NCBI GenBank assembly: GCA_041664925.1
Contig: JBAYJV010000002.1
Coordinates: 200,302 to 264,301, forward strand
Length of the DNA: 64,000 bases
Direction of reading: 5' to 3'
Origin: Minisyncoccota bacterium
GTDB taxonomy: Bacteria > Patescibacteriota > Minisyncoccia > JBAYJV01
The notes under the pieces are model-generated. The model searched no databases. It worked only from the letters and a program-made list of their open reading frames with translations, and was not told where the DNA came from. Of this stretch, positions 4,065-63,810 are shown in pieces. The stretch's first letter is position 1. Each line of letters starts with the position of its first letter. A program made the translations under genes and the position numbers.

Positions 4065-4200
4065 CTCCTTTTTTTAAAGAACTCTATTTTTAATCTACTC
4101 AAAAAAAAAATTAAATCAATTTGAAAAACTGTTGATAAGTTGTTCCTTTTATCTCTTTGATTAGCATCCAAGTTAAGTTAGGATAGGTTAAGAAATAAAT

Positions 4201-7875: not shown

Positions 7876-8940
7876 ATGAAAATTTTTTCCGGCATTCAAC
7901 CAACTGGCAAACTTCATATCGGCAATTATTTTGGCGCAATTCAAAACATGGTTAAACTTCAGGAGGAGAATGAGGCAATTTTTTCTATTGTTGATTTGCA
8001 CGCCATCACGGTTGATTATGATCCCAAAGATTTTCAATCTCGCATCAACGATACGATTTTAGATTTTTTGGCTTGCGGTATTGATCCTCAAAAATCAATT
8101 ATATTTATCCAATCGCAAATAAAAGAGCACTCTGAACTTGCTTGGCTTTTAGATACTGTTGCTTCCGTTGGCGAACTCCAGCGCATGACTCAGTTTAAAG
8201 ATAAATCTCAGAAAGAAGCCATCTCTAATATGAAAACATTCAGTAAAGAAGAATCAGAAAAAATTATCAAGCATCTTCCTGATGTGCATCCAATAGTTAA
8301 AACCAGCCTTCGAGAAGCTATCATTAGCGCAGGATTATTTAATTATCCCGTTCTTATGGCTGCAGACATTCTCTTATACGACACAGAAGCTGTTCCAGTT
8401 GGAGACGACCAAAAACAGCACTTGGAATTAACTCAAAACATCATTCGCCGTTTCAATAATAAATTCGGCGAGACATTCAAAAACATCAAACCGCTCATTC
8501 CACAAGAAGGCGCTCGAATCATGAGTCTCAAAGATCCATCTAAAAAAATGAGTAAGTCCGAACCCGATGGTTGTCTTTTTATTACCGACGCTCCCGAAGA
8601 AATTGAAAGAAAAATTAAATCGGCTGTTACTGACACCGAAAGAACTGTTAGTTTTGATCCGGAAAAAAGACCGGCGCTTGCCAATCTTTTAATGATTTAT
8701 GCTTTGTCTGAAAATAAACCAATTAAAAATATTGACTTAAATCAATTTGATGGCCACGCATCGTTCAAAAAAGCGCTTACCGAAAGTCTTATAAAAACAT
8801 TTGAACCGATTAGGAGGAAGCGAGAAGAATTAGAAAAACAACCAGAATACATAAAAGAAATTTTAGAAGAGGGGAGAGTAAAGGCGCAAGCCATTGCCAG
8901 TAAAAAAATCGAACAAGTTAAAGGGGTAATGGGATTATAA
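7876..8940 (+). CDS. trpS: Tryptophan--tRNA ligase
   Basis: Class I aaRS motifs: HIGN (PTGKLHIGNYFG) and KMSKS. Confidence 0.9.
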   Translation: MKIFSGIQPTGKLHIGNYFGAIQNMVKLQEENEAIFSIVDLHAITVDYDPKDFQSRINDTILDFLACGIDPQKSIIFIQSQIKEHSELAWLLDTVASVGELQRMTQFKDKSQKEAISNMKTFSKEESEKIIKHLPDVHPIVKTSLREAIISAGLFNYPVLMAADILLYDTEAVPVGDDQKQHLELTQNIIRRFNNKFGETFKNIKPLIPQEGARIMSLKDPSKKMSKSEPDGCLFITDAPEEIERKIKSAVTDTERTVSFDPEKRPALANLLMIYALSENKPIKNIDLNQFDGHASFKKALTESLIKTFEPIRRKREELEKQPEYIKEILEEGRVKAQAIASKKIEQVKGVMGL

Positions 8941-11383: not shown

Positions 11384-11824
11384 CTACACTCCTCCCTTCT
11401 TGTCCTCGCCTTCTTCGGCGGAACACGGCACCTTGTATCGCACCATCTTCCGGATTCCTACAAATAGAAGGATGGCGACAATCACGAACACTAGCCACCA
11501 GAATCCCTGCCAAAGCCATGGAAAGAACCATGACAGGCTTCCAGGGTCGCCAGCTCCCTGCGCCCTTACCATTGACCCAGAAAGCGCAGGAAGAATGACA
11601 AACACGACCAGTGCTTCAAGCGCCGAGAGAGCTGCCACCGTGAACCACTTTTCGTCTCTCGACATCGGCTTCTTCTTGAAGATCTTTCCAATTCTCTCGT
11701 CAATAACCTCTTTGCTACCCTTGAGAATGTCGACTTTTTCGGTCTTCCTCGGTAGTCTTCTGCCCCGCAGAAGATAGCCGATAAAAAGTCCGACTCCAAA
11801 AACGAGAAGAATTACCCAGATCAT
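11384..11824 (-). CDS. Hypothetical membrane protein (high-GC, likely horizontally acquired)
   Basis: 146 aa with three predicted TM segments. About 50% GC against a window background of about 35%. Hairpin terminator at 11375-11396. Confidence 0.45.
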   Translation of the reverse strand: MIWVILLVFGVGLFIGYLLRGRRLPRKTEKVDILKGSKEVIDERIGKIFKKKPMSRDEKWFTVAALSALEALVVFVILPALSGSMVRAQGAGDPGSLSWFFPWLWQGFWWLVFVIVAILLFVGIRKMVRYKVPCSAEEGEDKKGGV

Positions 11825-16724: not shown

Positions 16725-16830
16725 TTCACTAGTTTGTAGTTTTCTAATGTAGAGTGTTTTTTGTACTTAATATGTTTTAAAAAATTAAGATGCATGGTAA
16801 AATGGCGGTAAAGAAAGAGAGGTGAAAAAA

Positions 16831-16989
16831 ATGAAATTAACAAATAAACAAATTACCGCTGTCATCGCTATTATTATTGGTATTTTAGTTCTAATTTTCC
16901 CCAATTTTCTTAATGCTCTTGTTGCTCTGTTTTTAATAGCTTACGGAATTATCAGTTTAATACCATCAAAGAAAAAGGCTAAAAAATAA
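16831..16989 (+). CDS. Small membrane protein (52 aa)
   Basis: SD GAGAGGTG 8 nt upstream; two hydrophobic helices; K-rich C-terminus. Below the ORF-track length cutoff. Confidence 0.4.
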   Translation: MKLTNKQITAVIAIIIGILVLIFPNFLNALVALFLIAYGIISLIPSKKKAKK

Positions 16990-17028
16990 TCATCAAAAAA
17001 AGGAGCTTCTGTAGGAGCTCTTTTTTAA

Positions 17029-17057
17029 TTGACAAAAAGGATAGTCAATATTAATAT
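17029..17057 (+). promoter_or_regulatory. Sigma-70-type promoter of the small-TM-protein array
   Basis: TTGACA-N17-TAATAT. Confidence 0.5.
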
Positions 17058-17105
17058 AATAGAATTGGTTCTTTTAAATAAACTCTTACAAGGTAAGGGA
17101 GGAGT

Positions 17106-17334
17106 GATGACATTGGTCCGACGAATCAAACAGAGCCCAAATACCTCAGCAGCGTGTTTAGTTTTTGGTGTATTTGTTCTCACTCTCGGAGTCGAATATT
17201 TTGTGACAACTAGAGATGTTTTGTCAATATCAATATCAATATCAATACCTTTAACCATTTGCTGTATTCTTGATTTGTTTTGTGATTCTATTGAATCACA
17301 AAGAATAAAGAGAGACAAAAGGAGTGTGCTATGA
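17106..17334 (+). CDS. Small two-TM protein, divergent paralog 1 of a tandem array
   Basis: SD GGGAGGAGTG before ATG; two hydrophobic helices; C-terminus CDSIESQRIK resembles CESHRAKLK of the downstream paralogs. Contains an (TCAATA)4 microsatellite. Confidence 0.4.
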
Positions 17335-17552
17335 AGATTAAGCGCTGGTTTGTAAAAAAAGTTATTGAGAATAAGCTTGTGTCTACGCTGTGTCTTATTC
17401 TCGCCATTATTCTGCTTTCTGTTGATATCTATTATACTTTGTTACTTTTTAGGCTGACATGGTTTATACTTTTAATGGCGTTCATCTCTGGTTTCCTTTT
17501 GTGGTTCGATGCAAAATGTGAATCGCATCGCGCAAAGCTAAAATTAGATTAA
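17331..17552 (+). CDS. Small two-TM protein, paralog 2
   Basis: 73 aa, two TM helices, C-terminus CESHRAKLKLD. The 3' 45 nt are identical to the next gene. Confidence 0.55.
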   Translation: MKIKRWFVKKVIENKLVSTLCLILAIILLSVDIYYTLLLFRLTWFILLMAFISGFLLWFDAKCESHRAKLKLD

Positions 17553-17563
17553 AAGGAGAAAAT

Positions 17564-17791
17564 ATGAATAAGAAAATCTGTCGACAGTTTGTGAAAAGAA
17601 TTGTTGAAAGCGAATTTATGTTTATTACATGTATAGGAATCTCCTTTAGCTTGCTGGCTGTTGATGTATTCTACGCCTTATTGGTCCGTAAAATAACACT
17701 CCTTGCGGCGATTATAATGTTAATTGGTTGTCTTCTTATAGTTTTTGGCGGAACGTGTGAATCGCATCGCGCAAAGCTAAAATTAGATTAA
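17564..17791 (+). CDS. Small two-TM protein, paralog 3
   Basis: 75 aa, SD AAGGAG, identical C-terminus CESHRAKLKLD. Confidence 0.55.
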   Translation: MNKKICRQFVKRIVESEFMFITCIGISFSLLAVDVFYALLVRKITLLAAIIMLIGCLLIVFGGTCESHRAKLKLD

Positions 17792-17802
17792 AAGGAGGAA
17801 AA

Positions 17803-18027
17803 ATGGATGAGGAAGTAATGGGTGTTATCAGTTCAGCAATCGCTGGATTTGGAGAACAAGCCAACATTGCCTCAAATGTAGCACGCGACAAGATAGCAGT
17901 AAAGATTATCGAGGAACTAGAAGATCATGGTTTCTTAATTGTTCCCGCTGCTTCATCTGGTTCTTTCCTGCGCAAAAGAGAAAAACCACCCGATTCTTTC
18001 GTTCGAGACCCTTCGGATATAGGATAG
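17803..18027 (+). CDS. Hypothetical small soluble protein
   Basis: SD AAGGAGG; 74 aa; terminator at 18033-18063. Confidence 0.45.
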   Translation: MDEEVMGVISSAIAGFGEQANIASNVARDKIAVKIIEELEDHGFLIVPAASSGSFLRKREKPPDSFVRDPSDIG

Positions 18028-18032
18028 TACAA

Positions 18033-18063
18033 AGCCGAGCATAAGCTGCTCGGCTCTTTTTTC
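18033..18063 (+). terminator. Intrinsic terminator ending the small-protein array
   Basis: AGCCGAGC-ATAAGCT-GCTCGGCT + T6. Confidence 0.6.
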
Positions 18064-18106
18064 TAATTTCATCTCTGAGTAAAACGAAGAGAAATGAAAT
18101 TAAGAA

Positions 18107-18152
18107 TCCGCCGAAGCCCTGTCTGCGGCAGGCAGGTTACGCGTAGGCGGAT
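18107..18152. repeat. REP-like palindromic element (CCTGYCTGCGGCAGGCAGG core), copy a
   Basis: ATCCGCCGAAGCCCTGTCTGCGGCAGGCAGGTTACGCGTAGGCGGAT, about 90% identical to the copy at 21218-21264 including the upstream GAAATGAAATTAAGA. Confidence 0.55.
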
Positions 18153-18176
18153 AATTTTCTACCATCACTTTGTACT

Positions 18177-19799
18177 TTAAACTTTTAACTTTAAATTTTT
18201 AGTCATATATGTTCCTTCCAGTTTATATCCCAACTTTTTATAATATTCTCTCACTCCAATTCCCGAAATTACTGCAATTTTTTTAGCACCAAATTCTTCT
18301 TTTGAAATCCTTTCCGCTTCAATCATAAGTTTCTTGCCAAGTCCTTTGTGCTGAGAGGCTTGTTTTGTTTTATTATTAAGGGCAACAACATTGCCATGGG
18401 TATGAAGCTCTCTGATAATTGTGGCACCGGTTAATTCTTCTATAAAATGTTTTTTGGATTGTAAGAATTGAGAAGGAATCCGTAGGCGAAGTAGGGCATA
18501 GAGGTGTTTTCTTTTTTTATCTTCAAAACTTAAGAAGATCTCTTTACCGCTAGAAGCATCATATTCTCGTCTAACCAATTCAATATTTTTATCATAAATT
18601 TCTTCACGGATTTCACGGCAACGAATACATTGGCAAGAAATGGATTGTCTTTTCATTTCCCTGGCAATATCTTGCCTCAAGTTTGAAACCTCAGATCCAG
18701 CGACAATGTCCTGAAGCGGAATATCGCGAATCACTCTGGTAATCCGAACGTAAGGAGGAATAATTTTTTTAATCCTGATAATTAAATCGATTAATTTTTT
18801 GCTAGTATATGGTTTATATTTACCAGCTTTCCATAATTTATATAAAGGCGCAGTTTTTAAAACCGATGTCGGATAGATTTTAAGCCAATCTGGTTGAAAT
18901 CTTTCATTAAAAAATAATATTTTAAACATCTGTTCATCTTTTTTCGTGCTTGATCCCGGCAAATCTAGCATTATATGATAGTTAACTTTAAATCCTGAAT
19001 CTTTTAAAAGCTTAGTCGCATCAATAATTTCCTCGATGCCATGTCCTCGTTTATTATATTTCAAAACATCATCGTAAACTGACTCAACTCCCAGTTCAAC
19101 TCTCGTTACGCCTAAACGACGCAATCTCATAATCTCTTTTTCATTTATATAGTCTGGCCTGGTCTCAATCGTTAAACCGACAATTCTGTGCTTTGCTGTT
19201 TCATTAATCTTCTGAACTGTTTTTAAATTTTGAATTTTTAACTTTAATTTTTCATTTTTCACTTTAAACTTTTCATTTGTTCCGTTCGCTCCCTCAAAGC
19301 ACCTTTTAATGAAATAGTTTTGGTAATTTTTTGTATAATACGACCATGTTCCGCCTAAAATAATTAATTCAATTTTATCGGCATTATGGCCTTGTGCCTC
19401 CAAGCTTTCAATGCGACGCTTTACCTGTAAATACGGATCAAATTTAAGCGTAAGTGCTCTGGCTGCAGCTGGTTCATTTTTTAAATAACTTTTCGGCATG
19501 CCAATTTCTTTCGGACAAAAAATGCATTTTCCCGGACATTCGTAGGGCTTGGTCAAAACTGTCACCGAAACAATGCCTGATAAACTTCTGATGGGGGCAG
19601 CGCGTAAAAGTTTCTCAAAATATTTATCAAGCGAATCTGTCCTTTTTTTATAATTTTCTCGGTAATATTTAAGAATGCTTGAATTTTTGGGAAAATCGTT
19701 ATTTTTAAATTTTAAAACCGCCTCGCGCTTTAATTCAAAAACCTGCCTAGTTGTCGTAGGTTTTAATTTTATGATTTGTTTGGTAAGATAAGAAAGCAC
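18177..19799 (-). CDS. Elp3-like radical SAM / GNAT acetyltransferase (putative tRNA modification enzyme)
   Basis: Radical-SAM Cys motif YECPGKCIFCP. C-terminal GNAT acetyl-CoA motif QHKGLGKKLM. Length of 540 aa typical of Elp3. Confidence 0.65.
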   Translation of the reverse strand: MLSYLTKQIIKLKPTTTRQVFELKREAVLKFKNNDFPKNSSILKYYRENYKKRTDSLDKYFEKLLRAAPIRSLSGIVSVTVLTKPYECPGKCIFCPKEIGMPKSYLKNEPAAARALTLKFDPYLQVKRRIESLEAQGHNADKIELIILGGTWSYYTKNYQNYFIKRCFEGANGTNEKFKVKNEKLKLKIQNLKTVQKINETAKHRIVGLTIETRPDYINEKEIMRLRRLGVTRVELGVESVYDDVLKYNKRGHGIEEIIDATKLLKDSGFKVNYHIMLDLPGSSTKKDEQMFKILFFNERFQPDWLKIYPTSVLKTAPLYKLWKAGKYKPYTSKKLIDLIIRIKKIIPPYVRITRVIRDIPLQDIVAGSEVSNLRQDIAREMKRQSISCQCIRCREIREEIYDKNIELVRREYDASSGKEIFLSFEDKKRKHLYALLRLRIPSQFLQSKKHFIEELTGATIIRELHTHGNVVALNNKTKQASQHKGLGKKLMIEAERISKEEFGAKKIAVISGIGVREYYKKLGYKLEGTYMTKNLKLKV

Positions 19800-19803
19800 T
19801 ATA

Positions 19804-19929
19804 ATAAATCCGAAGCACGAAATTAGAAATACGAAACAAATTCAAATGTTTAAAATCCTAAATTAAAAATTGTTTTAAATTTTTAAAATTAGAATTTAGA
19901 TATTGTTTCGAATTTCGATATTCGAATTT
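19804..19929. mobile_element. MITE-like element, family 1 copy A
   Basis: Terminal inverted repeats ATAAATCCGAAGCACGAAATTAGAAATACGAAACAA / TTGTTTCGAATTTCGATATTCGAATTT with an AT-rich core. Confidence 0.5.
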
Positions 19930-19937
19930 TTCAAGAA

Positions 19938-20609
19938 ATGAATATAGAAACTGCAAAAAATATTTTAAACGATAACAAAAATACTTGGAACAATATTGCC
20001 GAGAAATTTGAATTGACCCGCCATCGTGTTTGGGATTTGGAACCTTTGGCAGATTATGCAAAATCCGGTATGAAAACTTTGGACTTAGGTTGCGGCAATG
20101 GCCGGCTTTATGAAATCCTTAAAAATAAAGAAATTGAATATACTGGTGTTGATATTTCAGAAAATCTAATTAATATTGCTAGGGCAAAATATCCAAAAAT
20201 TGAATTTTTAGTTGGTGATGGAATAGAATTGCCGTTCAGAGATTATTCATTTGATATTGTTTATTCAGTCGCTGTTTTTCATCATCTTCCGTCCAAAACA
20301 CTGAGAGTTCAATTTTTAAAAGAGGTAAAACGAGTTTTAAAAAAAGACGGTAAAATAATTTTGATTGTCTGGAATCTCTGGCAAAGAAAATATTTTAAAT
20401 TACTTGTCAAATCTAGTTTATTAAAAGTTTTACACAAAAGCAAGCTTGACTGGGGCGATTTATATATCCCATGGCAAAACCAATACCAAAGATATCACCA
20501 TGCCTTCACAAAAAAAGAATTAAAAAAACTTTTTATTAAAGCAGGACTTAGCATCGAAAAATCCAAATCTCAAAAAAGAAATATATTAATTATTGGAAAA
20601 AATATATAA
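19938..20609 (+). CDS. Class I SAM-dependent methyltransferase
   Basis: Motif I LDLGCGNGRL, motif II-like VDIS, DIVYS. Confidence 0.8.
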   Translation: MNIETAKNILNDNKNTWNNIAEKFELTRHRVWDLEPLADYAKSGMKTLDLGCGNGRLYEILKNKEIEYTGVDISENLINIARAKYPKIEFLVGDGIELPFRDYSFDIVYSVAVFHHLPSKTLRVQFLKEVKRVLKKDGKIILIVWNLWQRKYFKLLVKSSLLKVLHKSKLDWGDLYIPWQNQYQRYHHAFTKKELKKLFIKAGLSIEKSKSQKRNILIIGKNI

Positions 20610-20648
20610 GCTATTGACAAAAGGTAAAAAAATAATATAATAGATACT

Positions 20649-20801
20649 AGAGACTGAGGATGGCTTGAGACGTCAAACCAACAATCCTCATTTCTATTGC
20701 ATTATCTAGTCGCGGTTCTCTTTGCGGAGAGAATCATTGGCAAAAGGACGCTTTTGTCGGATTAACAACGGCAGCGAGTGCGCTCGCTGCCTTTTCTTTT
20801 T
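20649..20801 (+). ncRNA. Candidate small structured RNA, unknown family
   Basis: Promoter TTGACA(20614)-N16-TATAAT(20636-20641), GC-rich multi-hairpin body, intrinsic terminator GGCAGCGAGTGCGCTCGCTGCC+T-run (20770-20801). No credible ORF. Confidence 0.4.
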
Positions 20802-20877
20802 CAAAAAAAACGATCTCAAAAGACTGTTAAATCATAATAGGTATTGACAAAAAATTATTATATGCTATAGTGGATAT

Positions 20878-21178
20878 TGGAGGCTGGAGGAAGGACTTAA
20901 GACGTTGAGTCAGCGGTCTTCCTCCCTGCCTTTTCAAGAAAGATGTTCTCTTGTGAGAGTACACAGCGGTTTGTTGGACTGCTAGTGTGGCTACGGGTAG
21001 TTTGTGGTATCGGCTGCACGATAATAGGCCTTGCAGTCTGGCAGTACTGCGTAGTTTAGGTGCTCTCTGTCGAGAGAACAGAGAAACTGGCACAGAGCCA
21101 GTTCGCGTGTCCTGCAGGGGGCATACCTCTGCTGATGACTGCAGGGGGGTTGACGTCGAGTCAGCCCCTCTTTTTTTA
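20878..21178 (+). ncRNA. Candidate structured RNA of about 300 nt, unknown family
   Basis: Promoter TTGACA(20844)-N16-TATAGT; about 55% GC with many hairpins; terminator 21144-21177. Overlapping ORFs on both strands look spurious. Confidence 0.4.
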
Positions 21179-21217
21179 ATTTCGTCGCTGAATATAGTGA
21201 AGCGAAACGAAATTAAA

Positions 21218-21264
21218 ACCCGCTGAAGCCCTGCCTGCGGCAGGCAGGTTACGCGTAGGCGGGT
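21218..21264. repeat. REP-like palindromic element, copy b
   Basis: ACCCGCTGAAGCCCTGCCTGCGGCAGGCAGGTTACGCGTAGGCGGGT. Confidence 0.55.
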
Positions 21265-21485
21265 ATTTTTGTTTTTTTTAAACCGTAAAGATTATTCTAA
21301 GTTTTTCCTACAAAACCTTACGAAGTCGGACTTCGTAATCATTGACAAAAATGCAGAACATAGTAGGATTATAGAGTTCTTTGATAAAATAAAAAGTAGT
21401 CCCGCACCAGAGCACAGCACGGTGCGGGATTTAAGGGTTTGCAAGACTCGTAAACTCGTCAACAACCCCTAAAGGAGGACATAAA

Positions 21486-22034
21486 ATGCTCGGACGGATT
21501 GTAAAGTTTCCCGATGACTTTGAAATCTTGCCAAAATTTAAGAACGGGAATCTTCCAAGATTAATCGCAAGTTCTCTTCCTTATTATGTTCGTTTATTGG
21601 CAAGAATTTTTCCTGAAGAATGGCGATATCAAAAAATTGAAGTTGACGGACATGTCTTCCATTTAGCTTTCGATACTAAGTGGGAAATTCATTCCGAACC
21701 AGAACATTCGCCGTCTGCTGAATCAATGGCTGAATATCATGCCAGAGTTGATGGTGTTCCTGGTTTCTTGCTAGGATCGTTAGGTTGCAACAGCCATACA
21801 TCGAATCATTGGCACAAACTTGGAGGAGAGCATTACTTTCTTATTGCTGGCAAAGGCGAAGTTTGTTGCGTAAACCGTCCTCAGAAACTTACTGTTCCTG
21901 GAAGAAGCCAGGCTTATGTCGGCACCGCAGGAGGACCTAAAGGATTTCATCCAGTTCTTACAACTGATCAGTCACTCTTGGTTGTCATTCTAATGGAGCA
22001 AGGTCTTGATCGAAGTGATCATCATTATTTATAG
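21486..22034 (+). CDS. Hypothetical protein (possible cupin-like fold)
   Basis: SD AAGGAGG; GEHYFLIAGKGEV resembles a cupin beta-strand motif. Confidence 0.4.
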   Translation: MLGRIVKFPDDFEILPKFKNGNLPRLIASSLPYYVRLLARIFPEEWRYQKIEVDGHVFHLAFDTKWEIHSEPEHSPSAESMAEYHARVDGVPGFLLGSLGCNSHTSNHWHKLGGEHYFLIAGKGEVCCVNRPQKLTVPGRSQAYVGTAGGPKGFHPVLTTDQSLLVVILMEQGLDRSDHHYL

Positions 22035-22103
22035 AACTATTGACACAGGAAAAAGAAATGATAGTCTGTGATTAGTTCTGGTTAAAAGTCTAAGGAGGGC
22101 TAT

Positions 22104-22367
22104 ATGTCGAAACTAGTACTCGTAAAAGTTGTGGATCTCACTTCTCAAAAAGGACATTCGTTCACAAGACAATACCTTGCTGAAATATCCGACGGTAAAA
22201 GCTTAGTAGAATTACGAGAGCAAATTCAAACTGCCCTAGAAGATGAACTTCCTGGTAAAAATATTTACGTTGAGATATGGTGCTCAGATCGCATTTCTGA
22301 GGCTATTGATAAAATTGATGGCATTAAGGTCTCTCAAGAAATCGAAATCACTATTGAAGATAGATAA
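22104..22367 (+). CDS. Hypothetical small protein
   Basis: SD AAGGAGGG; promoter TTGACA at 22040; terminator 22375-22401. Confidence 0.4.
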   Translation: MSKLVLVKVVDLTSQKGHSFTRQYLAEISDGKSLVELREQIQTALEDELPGKNIYVEIWCSDRISEAIDKIDGIKVSQEIEITIEDR

Positions 22368-22526
22368 GTTAATAAGGCGCCCGCAAGGCGCCTCTTTTTT
22401 CTTGATTTAAAACTTTCATAATGTAAACTTAAAGAATAAAATCAGAAATAAAAAACGATAGAATATCTAAAATTTTTAATTTTACATTGTAATTTTTCAC
22501 TTTTCATTTTGAACTTTTAACTTTAC

Positions 22527-24056
22527 ATGGAATATAGTAATGTCTTTTTAAATTCCGAAGTCCATCCCAATAAATCAAAGCGTGTTAAATTGATTGAAAC
22601 TCATATTTCGAAGGTTTATTTGACGGATAAGTTTGTTTATAAAACTAAAAAACCAGTAGATTTTGGTTTTTGCAATTTTAGAGCACTTAAAAAAAGAAAA
22701 TTTTATTGTGAAGAAGAAATCCGGTTGAACAAAAGATTATGTCCAGAATTATATTTAGGAATTGTTCCTTTATACGAAATACAAGGCACGAAATACGAAA
22801 TAATCGATTATGCCGTAAAAATGAAACGGCTTCCAGAAAAAAATCTTCTCGCAAATTCCTTAAATATTTTAAACGAAAATCGCGTTAAAAAGTTAGCACA
22901 AATTATTGCAAAATTTCACAAAAATAATATTGAAGCGCCTTTTAATATTAAAGTTAATTCTTTTAAAAATGTCAAGCGCAACTGGCAAGAAAATTTTGAG
23001 CAGACAAAGTTATTTATTAATTCAACAATTAATCAGAAACAATTTGATTTCATTAGAAAAAGAGTTGAAAGTTTTATATTAAACAAAAAAGACCTCTTTC
23101 AAAAAAGAATTGCTAATCACAAAATCCGCGAAGGGCACGGAGATCTTCATACTGGCAATATCTTTTTTTACAAAAATAATTTCTATATTTTTGATGCTAT
23201 CGAATTTAATGAAAGGTTTCGTTTTGAAGATATAACCTCAGATCTTGCCTTCATTTTAATGGATTTGGAATTCCATAATTATTCGGATTTGAGCAGAATT
23301 ATTTTGAACAAATATTTATCCTTAACAAAAGACAAAGAATTGCTCTTGTTGATCAATTTTTATAAATGCTATCGTGCTTATGTTAGAGGAAAAATTTTAA
23401 GTTTTCAGACTAAAAACCAAAATCTTTCTTTAAATCAAAGAAAAAAAATTAAAATCACTGCGAAAAAATATTTTGCCTTGGCGCACGACTACGCAACTCA
23501 AGTTTTCCCCAAACCAATATTTTTAATTATGTGCGGCTTCACCGGATCCGGAAAAACCCATCTTTCCCAATTATTAAATCAAAGACTTGGCTTAAAGATG
23601 ATTCAGTCTGATGTTGTATTAAAAAAATCAGTCGGACTTGAGCCTCAAACCCGCAAATATCTAAAATTTGAACAGGGAATTTTCAGTCAAAAATCAAGAG
23701 ATAAAAATTATCTCCGCATGGTAAATTTGGCTGAAAAAAATCTCAAACAAAATCAGGGTGTTGTTTTAGATGCCAGTTTTATTTATAGGCGTTGGCGCAA
23801 TTTGGCAGAAATGATGGCAGAAAACCTTAATATTCCTTACTTAATTGTTCACTGCCAAGTACCGAAAAATATTATTTCAGAAAGATTAAAAACTCGCGCA
23901 AAAAATGATCTTGTGTCTGATGGAAGGCCTTATATTTATGAAAACCAAAAAAAGGTTTTTGAAAATTTTACTAAAAAAGAAAAAGTGCTTAGAATAGATA
24001 CTACAGAAAATTTCGATAAAATTCTTAGAAAAATTTTAACAGTTATAAAAATTTAA
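22527..24056 (+). CDS. Bifunctional protein: aminoglycoside-phosphotransferase-like kinase domain fused to P-loop NTPase
   Basis: N-terminal APH/protein-kinase-like region (HGDLHTGNIFF, D-I-E). C-terminal Walker A CGFTGSGKTHLS. Confidence 0.6.
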   Translation: MEYSNVFLNSEVHPNKSKRVKLIETHISKVYLTDKFVYKTKKPVDFGFCNFRALKKRKFYCEEEIRLNKRLCPELYLGIVPLYEIQGTKYEIIDYAVKMKRLPEKNLLANSLNILNENRVKKLAQIIAKFHKNNIEAPFNIKVNSFKNVKRNWQENFEQTKLFINSTINQKQFDFIRKRVESFILNKKDLFQKRIANHKIREGHGDLHTGNIFFYKNNFYIFDAIEFNERFRFEDITSDLAFILMDLEFHNYSDLSRIILNKYLSLTKDKELLLLINFYKCYRAYVRGKILSFQTKNQNLSLNQRKKIKITAKKYFALAHDYATQVFPKPIFLIMCGFTGSGKTHLSQLLNQRLGLKMIQSDVVLKKSVGLEPQTRKYLKFEQGIFSQKSRDKNYLRMVNLAEKNLKQNQGVVLDASFIYRRWRNLAEMMAENLNIPYLIVHCQVPKNIISERLKTRAKNDLVSDGRPYIYENQKKVFENFTKKEKVLRIDTTENFDKILRKILTVIKI

Positions 24057-24073
24057 TTTATTAGTATAAACCT

Positions 24074-25330
24074 ATGCAAAAATATATTGTCAAAGATATA
24101 AAACTAGCAAGTCAGGGTGAAAAAAATGCTCTTTGGGCAAAAAGTCAAATGCAAGCGCTTATGGCAGTTAAAAAACGTTTTGAAAAAGAAAAACCTTTCA
24201 AAAACATAAGCATTGGAATGGCGCTCCATATTACCAAGGAAACCGCTATGCTTGTTGAAACTCTGATCGCTGGTGGCGCAAAAGTCGCTATTGCATCTTG
24301 TAATCCATTAAGTACTCAAGATGATATTGCTGCCTATTTAGCAAAAAAAGGCGTAGCCGTTTTTGGTTATAAAGGCGAAACAACCAAAGAATATTATACC
24401 TATATTGAAAATGTCATAAAAACTACGCCTGATTTAACTATTGATGATGGTTGCGACTTGGTGTCAATAATTCATTCAGAACATAAAGCATTGCTCAAAA
24501 ATATTATCGGTGGCACAGAAGAGACAACAACTGGCGTTATCCGTCTTCGCGCCATGGAAAAAGATCAGGCGCTTAAATATCCGGTAATTGCAGTTAATGA
24601 TAATTTAACAAAACATTTGTTTGATAATTATTATGGAACAGGCCAGTCAACCTTTGATGGAATTTTGCGTGCATCCAATATTTTATTTGCTGGAAAAATT
24701 GTTGTCGTTGTGGGTTACGGCGATTGCGGCAGAGGAGTGGCGCTTCGAGCAAAAGGATTAGGATCACAAGTCATTGTGACTGAAATTAATCCTTTGCGAG
24801 CGCTTCAAGCTCGTTTTGATGGTTATGAAGTTATGGCTTTTGAAGATGCCGCTAAAATCGGTGATGTCTTTATTACGGTTACCGGTAATAAACATGTTAT
24901 CCGCAAAGAGCATTTTCCTTTAATGAAAGATGGCGCTGTCCTGGCAAATTCTGGTCATTTTAATGTTGAAATTGATTTGGGGTCACTTCAGAAAATCGCT
25001 AAAAGTGTAAAAAGAATTAGACCGTCTTTGGAAGAATATACGCTTAAAAATAACAAAAAAATCTATGTTGCTGCTGAGGGACGATTAGTTAATCTCGCCG
25101 CCGCTGAAGGTCATCCTTCAACCGTAATGAGTTTATCTTTTTGTGGACAAGCGTTGGCTGCCGAATATTTAGTAAAAAATAAAGGCAAACTCAAAAGCCA
25201 AGTCTACGTTCTTCCAAAAGACATAGATCAAAAAATTGCCAAACTCCAACTAGATGTTATGGGAATTGAAATCGATAAACTGACGCCCGAACAAAAGAAA
25301 TATCTTAATGATTGGCAACAAGGAACTTGA
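24074..25330 (+). CDS. ahcY: Adenosylhomocysteinase
   Basis: Conserved SAHH core and NAD-binding VVVGYGDCGRGVA. Confidence 0.9.
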   Translation: MQKYIVKDIKLASQGEKNALWAKSQMQALMAVKKRFEKEKPFKNISIGMALHITKETAMLVETLIAGGAKVAIASCNPLSTQDDIAAYLAKKGVAVFGYKGETTKEYYTYIENVIKTTPDLTIDDGCDLVSIIHSEHKALLKNIIGGTEETTTGVIRLRAMEKDQALKYPVIAVNDNLTKHLFDNYYGTGQSTFDGILRASNILFAGKIVVVVGYGDCGRGVALRAKGLGSQVIVTEINPLRALQARFDGYEVMAFEDAAKIGDVFITVTGNKHVIRKEHFPLMKDGAVLANSGHFNVEIDLGSLQKIAKSVKRIRPSLEEYTLKNNKKIYVAAEGRLVNLAAAEGHPSTVMSLSFCGQALAAEYLVKNKGKLKSQVYVLPKDIDQKIAKLQLDVMGIEIDKLTPEQKKYLNDWQQGT

Positions 25331-26778: not shown

Positions 26779-26842
26779 GACATTTATTAATTTTTCTTTA
26801 AACTGAAAATGCATGAAAAGATATGAGTAAAGTTCTTTAAAA

Positions 26843-53745: not shown

Positions 53746-53945
53746 TTGACTTTTAATAATAACTATGATATGATGACTAAAGTTGAATTAGTTCTTTAAA
53801 ATATTTTTGTTGGCAGCACACTGTGGCCTGTAGGCTGGACTTCAAAGTCCTCAGGCCCAGTCTGCTGTCAACAAAGAGAAGGACAAAAAACCTCAACGCC
53901 TTCCGCCTCAACAAGTCGAGGTCAACGTGACAGCAGGAGGACAAT
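53746..53945 (+). promoter_or_regulatory. Promoter (TTGACT-N17-TATGAT) plus conserved structured 5' leader, paralog 1
   Basis: Leader stem TTGTTGGCAGCAC...GTCTGCTGTCAACAA. Conserved AGAAGGACAAAAAACCTCAAC and GTGACAGCAGGAGGA abutting the SD. Confidence 0.5.
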
Positions 53946-54656
53946 ATGTCCAAGACGAAGCAGGTAGTACGGTTCTCGGTGAAAAGAATCAATGCAGAAA
54001 AAAACATATTTTGGAAAGGTATTATTAAGTTTATACATTCAGGCCGTGGGAATCGTTGTGAATTGATTGTAATCAATGATCCTCCGCTGCCACATCTTGA
54101 TGTTACTTACATGGAAGAACGCAATGTGGTCCTACAGAGAATCATTCGGAATTTCCCGGCCGAACTTGTAAAAGACACTCTGGAATACCCATATTCGCCA
54201 ACATCCGTTATGTATGGCGACTTGAGGGTTAAAATCGATTTCACTGGATTGATCGAAGTTATTGGTTCTCTTCTAGATAGCATGATGGGGCCAGAATACG
54301 AGATAGCTTTCCTCAATTATGGAGAAGAATATGCCGACGGCAAAACTATCGACGAAACCCTTAGGCAAAAACTTCGTCGCCGAAGTTATCGGCTTTGCCA
54401 TTTGACTGCAGTTGGAGACCATAATGCATGGAAACATGAAATTTCCAGTATGGGACTAACGCCGGAAGAGGCGGCAGAAAGGATAGGAGTAAACATCGAG
54501 GGACTTGTTAGTAATAATGTCTATTTGGTTTATGTGCCAATTGGAAACTTAGACAAAGTTCTTATCGGACTCGATGAATGGGCAGCACAGAGAGGAATTT
54601 CACGTTTTAGGATTCAAGACGAACTTGTTCTTGTTGAAACAACTAAGAAAGATTAG
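53946..54656 (+). CDS. Hypothetical protein (leader-bearing paralog 1)
   Basis: SD AGGAGG; 165-nt structured leader; terminator 54668-54697; N-terminal VVRFSVKRI. Confidence 0.5.
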   Translation: MSKTKQVVRFSVKRINAEKNIFWKGIIKFIHSGRGNRCELIVINDPPLPHLDVTYMEERNVVLQRIIRNFPAELVKDTLEYPYSPTSVMYGDLRVKIDFTGLIEVIGSLLDSMMGPEYEIAFLNYGEEYADGKTIDETLRQKLRRRSYRLCHLTAVGDHNAWKHEISSMGLTPEEAAERIGVNIEGLVSNNVYLVYVPIGNLDKVLIGLDEWAAQRGISRFRIQDELVLVETTKKD

Positions 54657-54734: not shown

Positions 54735-54915
54735 TTGACTTTTAATAAATTTAGTATTAGGATAATGAAAGAATCGTTCTTTAAAAATTTTGTTGACAGC
54801 GCCGTGAAATTAATTTTTTGACTTTATGGCGCTGTCAACAAAGCAAGGGTAAAAAAACCTTCATCACCCTTCACCCCAGCAAGCCGGGGTTGTCGTGACA
54901 GCGAAGGAGAAGTAA
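54735..54915 (+). promoter_or_regulatory. Promoter (TTGACT-N16/17-TAGGAT) plus homologous 5' leader, paralog 2
   Basis: Leader stem TTGTTGACAGCGCC...GGCGCTGTCAACAA. Conserved AAGGGTAAAAAAACCTTCATC and GTGACAGCGAAGGAGA. Confidence 0.5.
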
Positions 54916-55707
54916 ATGGCAAAAAAGGTCGGCAGGGATCCAGGAAGAACGGTAACTCAGAAAGTAAGGTTTCGTGTGTCAATTCTTACTAGGCCGACAC
55001 AATCTGATCCAATTCCCATTGAATGGGATGGTCAAGTTATCATTAAAAAATCTTGTGGAACACATTGTATATCAATTACCCTAGAACCAAATCCTAGCGA
55101 AATTGTTATGAAACTGGTCGCTGCAAGATTAAACCTGCTTGGCCATCTTCTTACTTCTAATTTTGAAGTCAAAAAACACGAACAAGAGTCATATTACATA
55201 ACAGGCACGTTTTATTTATCTACAAGTTTTAGGTTTTTTATTGATGCTTGTTATAGAACTTTCTGTGAAGAAATTCCTCAAACAAATAAATGGCCACATC
55301 ATTGGCTTGACTGGAACCCTCGCAATCTAAGCGTCGAGGAATTGCTTAGAAATGGATTGCCCCTCGCCAAAGATATCGAAGAAACATATCGCAAAGTAAC
55401 TTATGTTCTCTGCTTAAAAAGCTACATACAGGACAGCGCTGCTCCTCATCGCACAATTTCAAGACGGTGGAATCTTAATGCTCAGAACGATCAAGAATTG
55501 CAAGATGACCTTGGAAATGCTTTTGGAGTAAGAATAAAAAGTTATTGTAAAAGCGATGGAATAGCCTATTGTGGAGTCGAAATCCTTCCGGGAGATCCAA
55601 TGAGAATTATTCCTGAATTTTCCGGTTGGGCGTTAAGCGCAGGTTGGGATTGGGATAAGCTCCTTAAGGACAAAGAATTGATCCTTTGGAGAGTTGATCA
55701 AGAATAA
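54916..55707 (+). CDS. Hypothetical protein (leader-bearing paralog 2)
   Basis: SD AAGGAG; homologous 145-nt leader; N-terminal KVRFRVSIL; terminator 55721-55753. Confidence 0.5.
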   Translation: MAKKVGRDPGRTVTQKVRFRVSILTRPTQSDPIPIEWDGQVIIKKSCGTHCISITLEPNPSEIVMKLVAARLNLLGHLLTSNFEVKKHEQESYYITGTFYLSTSFRFFIDACYRTFCEEIPQTNKWPHHWLDWNPRNLSVEELLRNGLPLAKDIEETYRKVTYVLCLKSYIQDSAAPHRTISRRWNLNAQNDQELQDDLGNAFGVRIKSYCKSDGIAYCGVEILPGDPMRIIPEFSGWALSAGWDWDKLLKDKELILWRVDQE

Positions 55708-63726: not shown

Positions 63727-63810
63727 AACAAGGTTTGTACTTTAAAAATCTTGACAAAGAAGAAATATAGATTATAATTATGACAGTTCTTCAAAAGTCA
63801 AGGAGGAATA

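What the first reader, a model, noticed from the sequence alone, without database searches (positions are those of the whole stretch)
17029..18063. Tandem array of three tiny two-TM proteins with 45-bp identical 3' ends, followed by a small soluble protein, in one promoter-terminator unit
The unit runs from promoter 17029 to terminator 18033. The ORFs are 17106-17334, 17331-17552 and 17564-17791 (73-76 aa, two TM helices each, C-termini CESHRAKLKLD, identical at the nucleotide level across 45 bp including the downstream SD), then a 74-aa soluble ORF. All have strong SDs, unlike most genes here. The architecture resembles small membrane toxin/holin/bacteriocin-immunity or type-I-toxin-like arrays. 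Recent duplication or gene conversion is evident. An in-frame (TCAATA)4 microsatellite (17222-17247) could mediate phase variation in paralog 1.
Basis: seen in the sequence. Interest (0 to 1): 0.55.

Follow-up and report, generated by a model that had tools for sequence, protein, structure and literature searches.

The report
Hypervariable small membrane-protein operon in Paceibacterota
This is a real four-gene operon from an uncultured Paceibacterota bacterium that encodes three related two-helix membrane proteins and one small soluble protein, belongs to no known family, occurs only in a narrow clade, and differs far more between close relatives than the genes around it, so its function is still inferred.

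Summary
The operon is real: promoter 17029-17057, four ORFs with Shine-Dalgarno sites, terminator 18033-18055.

- Only ORF2 and ORF3 share the CESHRAKLKLD tail. The exact identity is 42 nt, not 45.
- ORF1 starts at ATG 17107. It has a different tail.
- (TCAATA)4 is an in-frame hexamer, so it cannot switch the gene on and off.

ORF1 (family A) and ORF2/ORF3 (family B) are distant paralogues (hhalign 93%). ORF4 (family C) is a small acidic soluble protein. Pfam, PHROGs, PADLOC, NCBIfam, PDB and phage collections gave no credible match. A profile search of 1.84 billion proteins found four B clusters. A search of 5.8 billion found eight C proteins. All lie in the same syntenic slot (DUF3096, then A-B(-B)-C, then convergent ELP3) in related metagenome contigs.

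Flanking genes are 85-94% identical to the nearest lineage. A is 34%, B 26-44% and C 64%. A and B types occur in mixed combinations between nearly invariant terminator arms. The 42-nt tract is a gene-conversion patch, most likely ORF3 into ORF2.

My best reading is a translationally coupled A/B membrane complex with C as cytosolic partner, possibly a conflict or immunity module. That function is inferred, not shown.

The parts
16995..17027 (.). Bidirectional terminator hairpin of the upstream DUF3096 gene. It forms the left conserved 'arm' of the cassette.
   Evidence: Terminator scan. The 29-nt core AAAAAGGAGCTTCTGTAGGAGCTCTTTTT is identical in window, L014, L018 and L025.
17029..17057 (+). 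Sigma70-type promoter: -35 TTGACA, 17-nt spacer, -10 TAATAT.
   Evidence: 10 of 12 matches. TTGAC(A/C/T)-N17-TAATAT is conserved in L014, L018, L019, L025 and L028 (alignment A10).
17068..17078 (+). Conserved leader or start-region motif GTTCTTTTAAA, just downstream of the -10 box.
   Evidence: Present in all 7 aligned loci. There are 8 matches in the window against 1.2 expected. Most sit just after a -10-like box, upstream of SD-led genes.
17107..17334 (+). ORF1, family A (type 1): 75 aa, two hydrophobic segments, SD GGGAGGAG. Its stop overlaps the ORF2 start (ATGA).
   Evidence: Homologues MTLIRQIRQ... in L018, L025 and L027. A-versus-B profile comparison gives probability 93%, E 3e-7. Not in public protein collections.
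17224..17247 (+). (TCAATA)4 perfect hexanucleotide repeat, in frame, encoding SISISISI within TM2 of ORF1.
   Evidence: TRF. Absent from A homologues.
17331..17552 (+). ORF2, family B (subtype ...KKVIEN...): 73 aa, N-terminal basic amphipathic helix followed by two hydrophobic segments.
   Evidence: It is 85% identical to the B protein of L031/L032. NCBI WC242_03995.
17517..17558 (+). Copy 1 of the 42-nt exact repeat: last 11 codons, stop and SD. This is the likely acceptor of the gene conversion.
   Evidence: ORF2 versus its orthologue L031_B is 93% identical before the tract and 74% inside it (Fisher p 0.001).
17564..17791 (+). ORF3, family B (subtype ...KRIVES...): 75 aa, two hydrophobic segments.
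   Evidence: It is 60-61% identical to the B protein of L014 (P0004). NCBI WC242_04000.
17756..17797 (+). Copy 2 of the 42-nt exact repeat, the likely donor.
   Evidence: ORF3 versus L014_B is 69% identical both before and inside the tract.
17803..18027 (+). ORF4, family C: 74-aa acidic soluble protein with two helices, the conserved segment GFLIVPAASSG(P/S)FLRK, and a variable tail.
   Evidence: Only 8 family members were found among 5.8 billion proteins.
18033..18063 (+). Intrinsic terminator (9-bp stem, 6 GC pairs, T-run). It forms the right conserved 'arm'.
   Evidence: AAAGCCGAGCATAAGCTGCTCGGCT is 93-100% identical in 7 lineages.

Best explanation
Shown:
- Positions 17029-18063 form one transcription unit in a Candidatus Paceibacterota genome.
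- It encodes three paralogous two-hydrophobic-segment proteins of about 75 aa (A = ORF1; B = ORF2 and ORF3) and a 74-aa acidic soluble protein (C = ORF4).
- A/B and C are orphan families confined to one narrow clade. They always sit in the same genomic slot: DUF3096, then A-B(-B)-C, then convergent ELP3.
- The coding cassette is much more divergent between lineages than its flanks. It exists as mixed combinations of A types and B subtypes, with one or two B copies, between nearly invariant terminator arms.
- Within this genome a 42-nt patch covering the tail, stop codon and SD is identical in ORF2 and ORF3. The comparisons point to copying from ORF3 onto ORF2.

Inferred mechanism:
- A and B are made in fixed proportion. 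The A stop overlaps the B start, and every gene has a strong SD.
- They insert as N-in/C-in helical hairpins and assemble into a hetero-oligomeric inner-membrane complex.
- The conserved positions of B (W6, K9, E13, then C21, L28, D32, Y35) are spaced roughly one to two helical turns apart. I read this as a conserved helix face serving as an interface, or as a polar lining containing a membrane-embedded Asp.
- The basic cytoplasmic N- and C-tails would dock the acidic C protein as a cytosolic partner or regulator.

Inferred functional class (weakest step):
- The divergent allele types, apparent module shuffling, copy-number variation and restriction to an accessory, SD-led gene class fit a conflict or specificity module best. 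Examples would be a membrane-permeabilising toxin or pore with its regulator, or immunity proteins against membrane-targeting toxins.
For: Transcription unit:
- Promoter and terminator are conserved across loci.
- All four genes have SD sites, against 14 of 55 long ORFs genome-wide with a core of 5 nt or more.
- The ATGA overlap of A and B is seen here and in homologues.

Real genes:
- dN/dS is below 1 for most B and C pairs: B 0.10-0.5, C 0.22-0.54. For close A pairs it is 0.5-0.7.
- A and B are homologous (hhalign probability 93%, E 3e-7). The control against the neighbouring DUF3096 protein is negative (1.9%).

Orphan status and synteny:
- Searches.
- Genomic contexts.

Hypervariability, window versus L025/L027:
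- Flanks: HtrA 92%, SIMPL 94%, M23 92%, ELP3 85-88%, methyltransferase 80-84%.
- Cassette: A 34%, B 44% and 26%, C 64%.

Mixed combinations:
- A type 1 occurs with the L018/L027/L028/L034-like B (L018, L025/L027) and with the L031-like plus L014-like B pair (window).
- A type 2 occurs with the L014-type B, with the L028/L034-type B, and with the L031-type B.

Conserved arms.

Conversion tract:
-.
- It has no RNA structure that would explain the identity (z +1.06).

Topology: K+R/D+E counts are N-terminus 6/1, middle 1/1, C-tail 4/3.

Structure models:
- C has two helices followed by an extended conserved segment.
- B is all-helical.
Against: - No experimental or homology evidence exists for any function.
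- No toxin, lysin, transporter or nuclease is linked to the operon.
- PADLOC found no hit for any A, B or C protein.
- Average dN/dS is below 1, so positive selection is not demonstrated.
- AF2 did not resolve a hairpin in B. It modelled one long helix with pTM 0.36.
- TM topology rests on hydropathy and charge counts only.
- Part of the recombination evidence could be metagenome-assembly chimerism. L027 is 100% identical to L025 on its left and 100% identical to L014 on its right. Several allele-bearing contigs are only 1-2 kb.
- In L019 the C domain sits in a separate downstream operon, fused to a Cys-rich N-terminus. The A/B-C partnership is therefore not obligatorily co-transcribed.
- Small hydrophobic proteins tolerate many substitutions, which inflates protein divergence.
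Confidence: 0.45

Rival explanations
1. Lineage-specific but non-conflict accessory membrane proteins. A/B would be small subunits, chaperones or regulators of some membrane machine or of envelope homeostasis. Their divergence would simply reflect weak constraint on short hydrophobic helices. C would be a small adaptor or possibly a winged-helix-like regulator.
For: - dN/dS is below 1 throughout.
- The position among housekeeping genes is stable in every lineage.
- No mobile-element or phage signal was found.
- dS of C is comparable to the flanks: L014 versus L025/L027 gives C 0.55, against ELP3 0.39 and methyltransferase 0.68.
- C has an LEExGFLI-plus-wing-like pattern and weak MarR hits in 2 of 8 members.
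Against: - A types are barely alignable (17-34% identity) between lineages whose flanks are 85-94% identical.
- A and B types are combined in mixed sets.
- B copy number varies.
- The non-coding arms are nearly invariant while the coding DNA between them is not.
- The family is absent outside one narrow clade.
Confidence: 0.3
2. A holin/antiholin-type lysis cassette, as in phage class II holins or two-component holins. A and B would form membrane lesions that release a murein hydrolase, for example the upstream M23/LysM peptidase.
For: - Size of 73-75 aa, two hydrophobic segments, charged C-tail and N-in/C-in charge bias.
- An M23/LysM peptidase gene lies about 440 nt upstream of ORF1.
- Weak PHROG holin hit for ORF3 (E 0.053).
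Against: - No significant PHROG or Pfam holin match.
- No relatives in IMG/VR or in GenBank phages.
- There is no endolysin or spanin in the operon.
- The M23 gene is a separate unit, separated from the cassette by the DUF3096 gene and two terminator-like hairpins. It is 92% conserved while the cassette is not.
- A near-consensus promoter with strong SD sites is odd for an unregulated lysis gene.
Confidence: 0.07
3. C is a RiPP-like precursor with a conserved roughly 58-aa leader and a hypervariable C-terminal core. It would be matured by the adjacent radical-SAM enzyme, with A/B acting as immunity or export proteins.
For: - The N-terminal 58 residues of C are conserved and the tails are highly variable, several ending in G(C/L)GTGG.
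- A radical-SAM gene lies convergently next to the operon.
Against: - The radical-SAM protein is a canonical ELP3 type (Radical_SAM + Radical_SAM_C + GNAT).
- It is 85-89% conserved between these lineages.
- It sits with methyltransferase and KTI12-like genes.
- In L028 the tail is cut off by a stop codon.
- In L019, C is separated from ELP3 by another gene.
- There is no peptidase or ABC exporter.
Confidence: 0.03
4. ORF1 is a phase-variable gene switched by slippage of the (TCAATA)4 repeat.
For: A perfect 24-nt repeat lies inside ORF1.
Against: - The unit length is 6, so any copy-number change stays in frame and only adds or removes Ser-Ile pairs in TM2.
- ORF1 (75 aa) has the same length as its homologue in L018.
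- The repeat is not present in any homologue.
- The JGI contig L001 is identical to the window across this region, so no length variant is on record.
Confidence: 0.03

Closest known systems
Class II holins and pinholins (for example phage 21 S21; comparison from general knowledge) and two-component holin-like pairs
   Same: Size of about 70 aa, two hydrophobic helices, predicted N-in/C-in orientation, charged C-terminal tail, and paralogous genes in tandem.
   Different: No sequence or profile similarity. There is no lysin or spanin partner. The locus is not in a phage or prophage. No phage homologues were found. A soluble acidic partner C is always linked.
Small transmembrane bacteriocin-immunity proteins and orphan-immunity arrays in polymorphic loci, such as the pneumococcal blp region (from general knowledge)
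   Same: Short two-TM proteins, tandem paralogues with variable copy number, highly divergent alleles between conserved flanks, and apparent recombination-driven shuffling.
   Different: There is no bacteriocin precursor, double-glycine leader, ABC exporter or regulatory genes nearby. A and B are translationally coupled. No homology was found.
Membrane-acting toxin-antitoxin modules (type I toxins such as Hok, TisB and Fst; from general knowledge)
   Same: Small hydrophobic proteins encoded in a compact unit.
   Different: Type I toxins are usually under 60 aa with one TM helix, are weakly translated and are controlled by an antisense RNA. Here there are three two-TM proteins with strong SD sites and no antisense RNA signal (Rfam).
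DUF3487 / TIGR03750 (two-TM conjugal-transfer protein of integrative conjugative elements) and DUF308 (HdeD-type two-TM repeat)
   Same: A two-TM hairpin of similar length. These gave the best sub-threshold HMM hits: ORF3 to DUF3487 at E 0.0048 and to TIGR03750 at E 0.009, and the L028 B protein to DUF308 at E 0.0009.
   Different: All hits are below the curated cut-offs. They were hit by only 1-2 of 18 family members, and different members hit different families. No conjugation genes are present.
DUF3096 (PF11295), the two-TM protein encoded immediately upstream (16822-16989)
   Same: A small two-TM protein with a basic C-tail in the same neighbourhood.
   Different: Profile-profile probability is 1.9%. 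It is a separate transcription unit with its own terminator. It is 84% conserved where the cassette is 26-64%.

Membership tests
Phage holins (PHROG and Pfam holin families) | Significant profile match to a holin family | tested here: not met
   The best hit is phrog_26796 at E 0.053 for ORF3 only. A weak LrgA hit at E 0.04 appears in 1 of 18 members.
Phage holins (PHROG and Pfam holin families) | Genetic linkage to an endolysin or spanin within a phage or prophage lysis cassette | tested here: not met
   The operon contains only A, B, B and C. The neighbours are HtrA, SIMPL, M23/LysM, DUF3096 and ELP3. No homologues were found in IMG/VR or GenBank phages.
Phage holins (PHROG and Pfam holin families) | Small size, at least one TM domain and a charged C-terminus | tested here: met
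   Hydropathy and charge tallies. These features are generic and not diagnostic.
Type I toxin-antitoxin | A toxin shorter than about 60 aa with a single TM helix, and a cis or trans antisense RNA antitoxin | tested here: not met
   The proteins are 73-75 aa with two hydrophobic segments. No known sRNA reached threshold. An antisense promoter was not specifically demonstrated.
Known anti-phage defence systems (PADLOC-DB 2.0) | Match of any component to a defence-system HMM | tested here: not met
   Zero families for A, B and C.
DUF3487 / TIGR03750 ICE two-TM protein | Score above the curated cut-off and consistent hits across family members | tested here: not met
   17.1 bits against a cut-off of 27.8, and 15.9 against 70.75. 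Only 1 of 18 members hits it.
DUF3096 (PF11295) | Profile similarity to the adjacent bona fide DUF3096 protein | tested here: not met
   hhalign probability 1.9%.
Class II bacteriocin-immunity locus | Presence of a bacteriocin precursor with a double-glycine leader and a dedicated exporter | tested here: not met
   No such ORF lies between 16667 and 18177. The flanking genes are housekeeping.
Class II bacteriocin-immunity locus | Protection against a cognate membrane-active toxin | not testable with these tools
   This needs an expression or challenge assay.
Winged-helix (MarR-like) regulator, for protein C | Significant wHTH profile or fold match | tested here: not met
   MarR hits in 2 of 8 members at E 0.065 or worse. 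The best Foldseek PDB hit has E 2.9. The PDB profile search gave E 0.26 or worse.

The most novel reading that the evidence does not exclude
The A-B(-B)-C cassette is a balanced, recombination-shuffled specificity locus of an ultra-small, probably episymbiotic Paceibacterota lineage. It would be either a self/non-self or host-interaction determinant, or a membrane toxin-immunity pair. It would be built from two previously unseen protein families. Invariant terminator hairpins would serve as homology arms for allele swapping, and intragenomic gene conversion would homogenise the B tails that contact C.
Probability: 0.2. Interest if true: 0.7.

Novelty: new variant of a known kind. Interest (0 to 1): 0.4.

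Why it matters
Candidate Phyla Radiation genomes are full of small orphan membrane proteins, and almost none has a functional handle. This locus provides one.

- It defines two compact families (A/B and C) with clear gene boundaries.
- It corrects a mis-annotated gene, ORF1, which public pipelines called on the wrong strand.
- It shows conserved expression signals.
- It shows allelic hypervariability between conserved arms, a population-genetic signature that in better-known bacteria marks toxin-immunity, pherotype or phage-interaction loci.

If that reading holds, this would be a tractable entry point into strain-level conflict or host specificity in Paceibacterota. If it does not hold, the locus is simply a fast-evolving clade-specific operon, which is ordinary for these genomes.

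Tried and rejected
- **Family libraries.** Pfam, PHROGs, PADLOC and NCBIfam scans of all A, B and C members gave only scattered sub-threshold TM-composition hits.
- **Solved structures.** PDB profile searches and Foldseek of the C model gave nothing significant.
- **Phage origin.** Two IMG/VR scans with B and C profiles and two tblastn searches of GenBank phages found nothing.
- **Synteny in GTDB species representatives through ELP3.** The nearest representatives have only 50-55% ELP3 identity, and the three inspected (L002, L004, L005) are not syntenic.
- **Metagenome scan with the C profile.** It returned only loci already known.
- **RNA-level explanation for the 42-nt identity.** There is no structure (z +1.06) and no Rfam family.
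- **Homology of C to the extra 118-aa and 250-aa proteins of L019.** Negative. These proteins have no relatives in the window.
- **Urm1/ThiS-like idea for C, prompted by the C-terminal GG in some alleles next to ELP3.** Rejected. The tail is not conserved, it is truncated in L028, and the model is helical rather than a beta-grasp.
- **Using dN/dS to choose the coding strand of gene A.** Too few substitutions to discriminate. The strand was assigned from homology to B, the SD site, translational coupling and promoter orientation.
- **The L027-versus-L014 comparison** (right flank 100% identical, cassette very different). Downgraded because L027 may be an assembly chimera.
Full report
**1. What is in the sequence**

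The region 17029-18063 contains a near-consensus sigma70-type promoter (TTGACA, 17 nt, TAATAT; 17029-17057) and a strong intrinsic terminator (18033-18055 plus a T-run). Four co-oriented ORFs lie between them:
- ORF1, 17107-17334, 75 aa.
- ORF2, 17331-17552, 73 aa.
- ORF3, 17564-17791, 75 aa.
- ORF4, 17803-18027, 74 aa.

ORF1 to ORF3 each have two hydrophobic segments. Each also has a basic N-terminus and a charged C-tail. The K+R/D+E counts for ORF2 are 6/1 at the N-terminus, 1/1 in the middle and 4/3 in the tail. ORF4 is acidic and soluble. The ORF1 stop overlaps the ORF2 start (ATGA). Each gene has a 5-6 nt SD core.

Of 55 long ORFs in the window, 36 have no SD core and only 14 have 5 nt or more. 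TRF confirms (TCAATA)4 at 17224-17247.

**2. Corrections to the observation**

- Only ORF2 and ORF3 end in CESHRAKLKLD. ORF1 ends in ...CDSIESQRIKRDKRSVL.
- The exact repeat is 42 nt (17517-17558 = 17756-17797) and includes the stop codon and the AAAGGAG SD.
- Upstream of the tract the two genes are 52% identical in DNA (97/186). They are 42% identical in protein, with dS of about 1.35. This is a local conversion patch in old paralogues, not a recent duplication.
- ORF2 is 93% identical to its orthologue in L031 before the tract but 74% inside it (Fisher p 0.001). ORF3 is 69% identical to its closest relative, L014_B, in both parts. The simplest reading is that the ORF3 tail overwrote the ORF2 tail.
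- The tract has no RNA structure that could explain the identity (z +1.06).
- The hexanucleotide repeat is in frame and encodes SISISISI in TM2. It does not change the length of ORF1 relative to its homologue and is absent from homologues. It cannot act as an on/off switch.

**3. Source and annotation**

The window is identical to JGI contig Ga0376277_0000593 over the 20,228 bases of that contig fetched as locus L001. NCBI names the same proteins in a Candidatus Paceibacterota MAG as WC242_03995, WC242_04000 and WC242_04005.

ORF1 on the + strand is absent from the 15-billion-protein collection. JGI, ENA and Logan instead call a 77-aa ORF on the opposite strand. I assign the + strand for these reasons:
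- Homologues starting MTLIRQIRQ... are called on the + strand in other loci.
- The A family is homologous to the B family (hhalign probability 93%, E 3e-7). The control against the neighbouring DUF3096 protein is negative (1.9%).
- The SD, the translational coupling to B and the promoter orientation are conserved.

Codon-position statistics were too sparse to help.

**4. Relatives**

Word-index searches with ORF3 and ORF4 found only the query proteins themselves. A full HMMER profile search of 1.84 billion representatives found four B clusters. A C-family profile found eight proteins among 5.8 billion.

Every contig encoding them has the same neighbourhood:
- HtrA, SIMPL, M23/LysM peptidase and DUF3096 on one side.
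- The cassette A-B(-B)-C in the middle.
- A convergent ELP3-type radical-SAM/GNAT gene and a methyltransferase on the other side.

Architectures vary:
- A-B-C in L014, L018, L025/L027, L028, L031/L032 and L034.
- A-B-B-C in the window.
- A-B-B with its own terminator in L019. A second operon follows there, encoding 118-aa, 124-aa and 250-aa proteins. The 124-aa protein carries the C domain fused to a Cys-rich N-terminus.

No relatives exist in IMG/VR or in GenBank phages. The GTDB representatives nearest by ELP3 have only 50-55% identity, and the three inspected are not syntenic.

**5. Family assignment**

Pfam, PHROGs, PADLOC, NCBIfam and PDB gave only scattered sub-threshold hits, and the hits differ from member to member. 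AF2 models C as two helices (residues 3-14 and 25-41) followed by a low-confidence segment. That segment contains the most conserved motif, GFLIVPAASSG(P/S)FLRK (pLDDT 72). Foldseek found nothing. B is modelled as all-helical (pLDDT 80) without a resolved turn. A/B and C are therefore unclassified orphan families.

**6. Evolutionary pattern**

Between the window and L025/L027 the flanking proteins are 80-94% identical. A is 34%, B is 44% and 26%, and C is 64%. The comparison is:

| Protein | Identity to L025/L027 |
|---|---|
| HtrA | 92% |
| SIMPL | 94% |
| M23/LysM | 92% |
| ELP3 | 85-88% |
| Methyltransferase | 80-84% |
| A (ORF1) | 34% |
| B (ORF2 / ORF3) | 44% / 26% |
| C (ORF4) | 64% |

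dN/dS is below 1 for most pairs in the cassette. It is higher than in the flanks (0.07-0.24):
- B: 0.10-0.5.
- C: 0.22-0.54.
- Close A pairs: 0.5-0.7.

A exists in at least three barely alignable types, and B falls into several divergent groups. These occur in mixed combinations:
- A type 1 with the L018/L027/L028/L034-like B in L018 and L025.
- A type 1 with both the L031-like and the L014-like B in the window.
- A type 2 with the L014-type B in L014.
- A type 2 with the L028/L034-type B in L028 and L034.
- A type 2 variant with the L031-type B in L031.

In contrast, the DUF3096 terminator on the left and the operon terminator on the right are essentially invariant across lineages. The promoter core is also conserved. 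This looks like allele and module exchange between conserved arms.

One caveat applies. The most dramatic pair, L027 versus L014, has a 100% identical right flank but a very different cassette. It may reflect an assembly chimera. L027 equals L025 to the left of about position 6700 and equals L014 to the right of about position 6586. Several other contigs are short.

**7. Mechanism**

Shown:
- One conserved transcription unit.
- Translational coupling of A and B.
- Paralogy of A and B.
- Constant linkage with C.
- Restriction to one clade.
- Hypervariability of the cassette.
- A gene-conversion tract.

Inferred:
- A and B insert as N-in/C-in hairpins and form a hetero-oligomer.
- The nearly invariant B residues are spaced roughly one to two helical turns apart (W6, K9, E13; C21, L28, D32, Y35). 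I read this as a conserved face that includes a membrane-embedded Asp.
- The acidic C protein would dock on the basic cytoplasmic tails.
- The conversion tract keeps the two B tails identical, and also the SD of the gene that follows each B. That fits a shared contact or a balanced level of expression.

The functional class is the weakest step. Divergent allele types, apparent shuffling and copy-number variation point towards a conflict or specificity module, such as a membrane toxin or pore with its regulator, or immunity proteins. A clade-specific accessory membrane complex under weak constraint is nearly as likely. A phage-type holin cassette, a RiPP precursor reading of C and TCAATA-based phase variation are each unlikely, for the reasons given under the rival explanations.

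**8. Verdict**

The object is an orphan, hypervariable small-membrane-protein operon. It is of moderate interest mainly for its population-genetic signature and as a possible handle on strain-level biology in Paceibacterota. It is not demonstrably a new mechanism.

Noticed in passing
window 17068-17078; also 4072-4082(-), 26832-26842, 53791-53801, 54776-54786, 63786-63796; L019 about 8490-8510: The motif GTTCTT(T/C)NAAA occurs 8 times against 1.2 expected. At the sites listed it sits just downstream of a -10-like box, at the start of long leaders that end in strong SD sites. Most of the genes behind it have no Pfam family. It could be a conserved 5'-leader or transcription-start motif, or an operator, marking a class of leadered accessory genes.
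   Followed up: partly
whole window (55 ORFs of at least 120 aa): Translation-initiation signals split into two groups. 36 of 55 long ORFs, including most housekeeping genes, have no SD core. A minority have perfect 5-6 nt SD sites, and many of those checked lack a Pfam match (11384-11824, 21486-22034, 53946-54656, 54916-55707).
   Followed up: partly
window 18177-25330: An ELP3-type radical-SAM/GNAT gene (18177-19799, - strand), a Methyltransf_11 gene (19938-20609), a KTI12/AAA_33-like gene (22527-24056) and an S-adenosylhomocysteine hydrolase gene (24074-25330) lie together. This looks like an Elongator-style (m)cm5U tRNA-modification neighbourhood in a bacterium. It is conserved in L025 and L028.
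   Followed up: no
window 18028-18176; L018 978-1141; L019 8340-8450; L031 and L034 downstream regions: Three consecutive hairpins follow the operon (MFE -56 kcal/mol, z -6.1). In the second, the stem differs between loci while still pairing, and the loop CTGAG..AACGAAG is largely conserved. In L019 the element follows the A-B-B terminator although ELP3 is 2 kb away, so it travels with the cassette. There is no Rfam match, and the motif occurs only once in the window.
   Followed up: partly
window 17025-17318 (- strand): A 97-aa antisense ORF overlaps ORF1 and the promoter, and public pipelines annotate 77 aa of it as a gene. Stop-free antisense stretches of 64-135 aa occur across the A gene in all eight loci. 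This is probably a by-product of codon composition, but it is unexpectedly long for DNA of 36% GC.
   Followed up: partly
L027 (Ga0247841_10013685) versus L025 and L014: L027 is 100% identical to L025 from its left end to about 6700, and 100% identical to L014 from about 6586 rightwards. The switch lies inside ELP3. This is either a very recent recombinant or a metagenome-assembly chimera of two co-occurring strains.
   Followed up: partly
L028 3590-3645: The C gene of L028 ends at a TAA that is followed in frame by GSCGLGTGG-stop. That is the tail seen intact in other alleles, so a nonsense mutation (or a read-through site) removed the variable tail.
   Followed up: no
L019 8594-10201: The L019 lineage has an extra SD-led operon encoding a 118-aa protein, a 124-aa protein (Cys-rich N-terminus plus C domain) and a 250-aa protein. 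These show LxxxGL(I/V)-type, winged-helix-like sequence patterns. There is no Pfam match and no relative in the window.
   Followed up: partly
L002 7660-11050 (Patescibacteria SAG AM-311-N19): A tandem array of at least six paralogous small membrane proteins sharing an A(A/G)GD(D/E) motif and two C-terminal hydrophobic helices lies next to ELP3 in a distant relative. From memory it resembles the T4SS-pilin-like arrays of Patescibacteria. It is unrelated to the A/B family.
   Followed up: no
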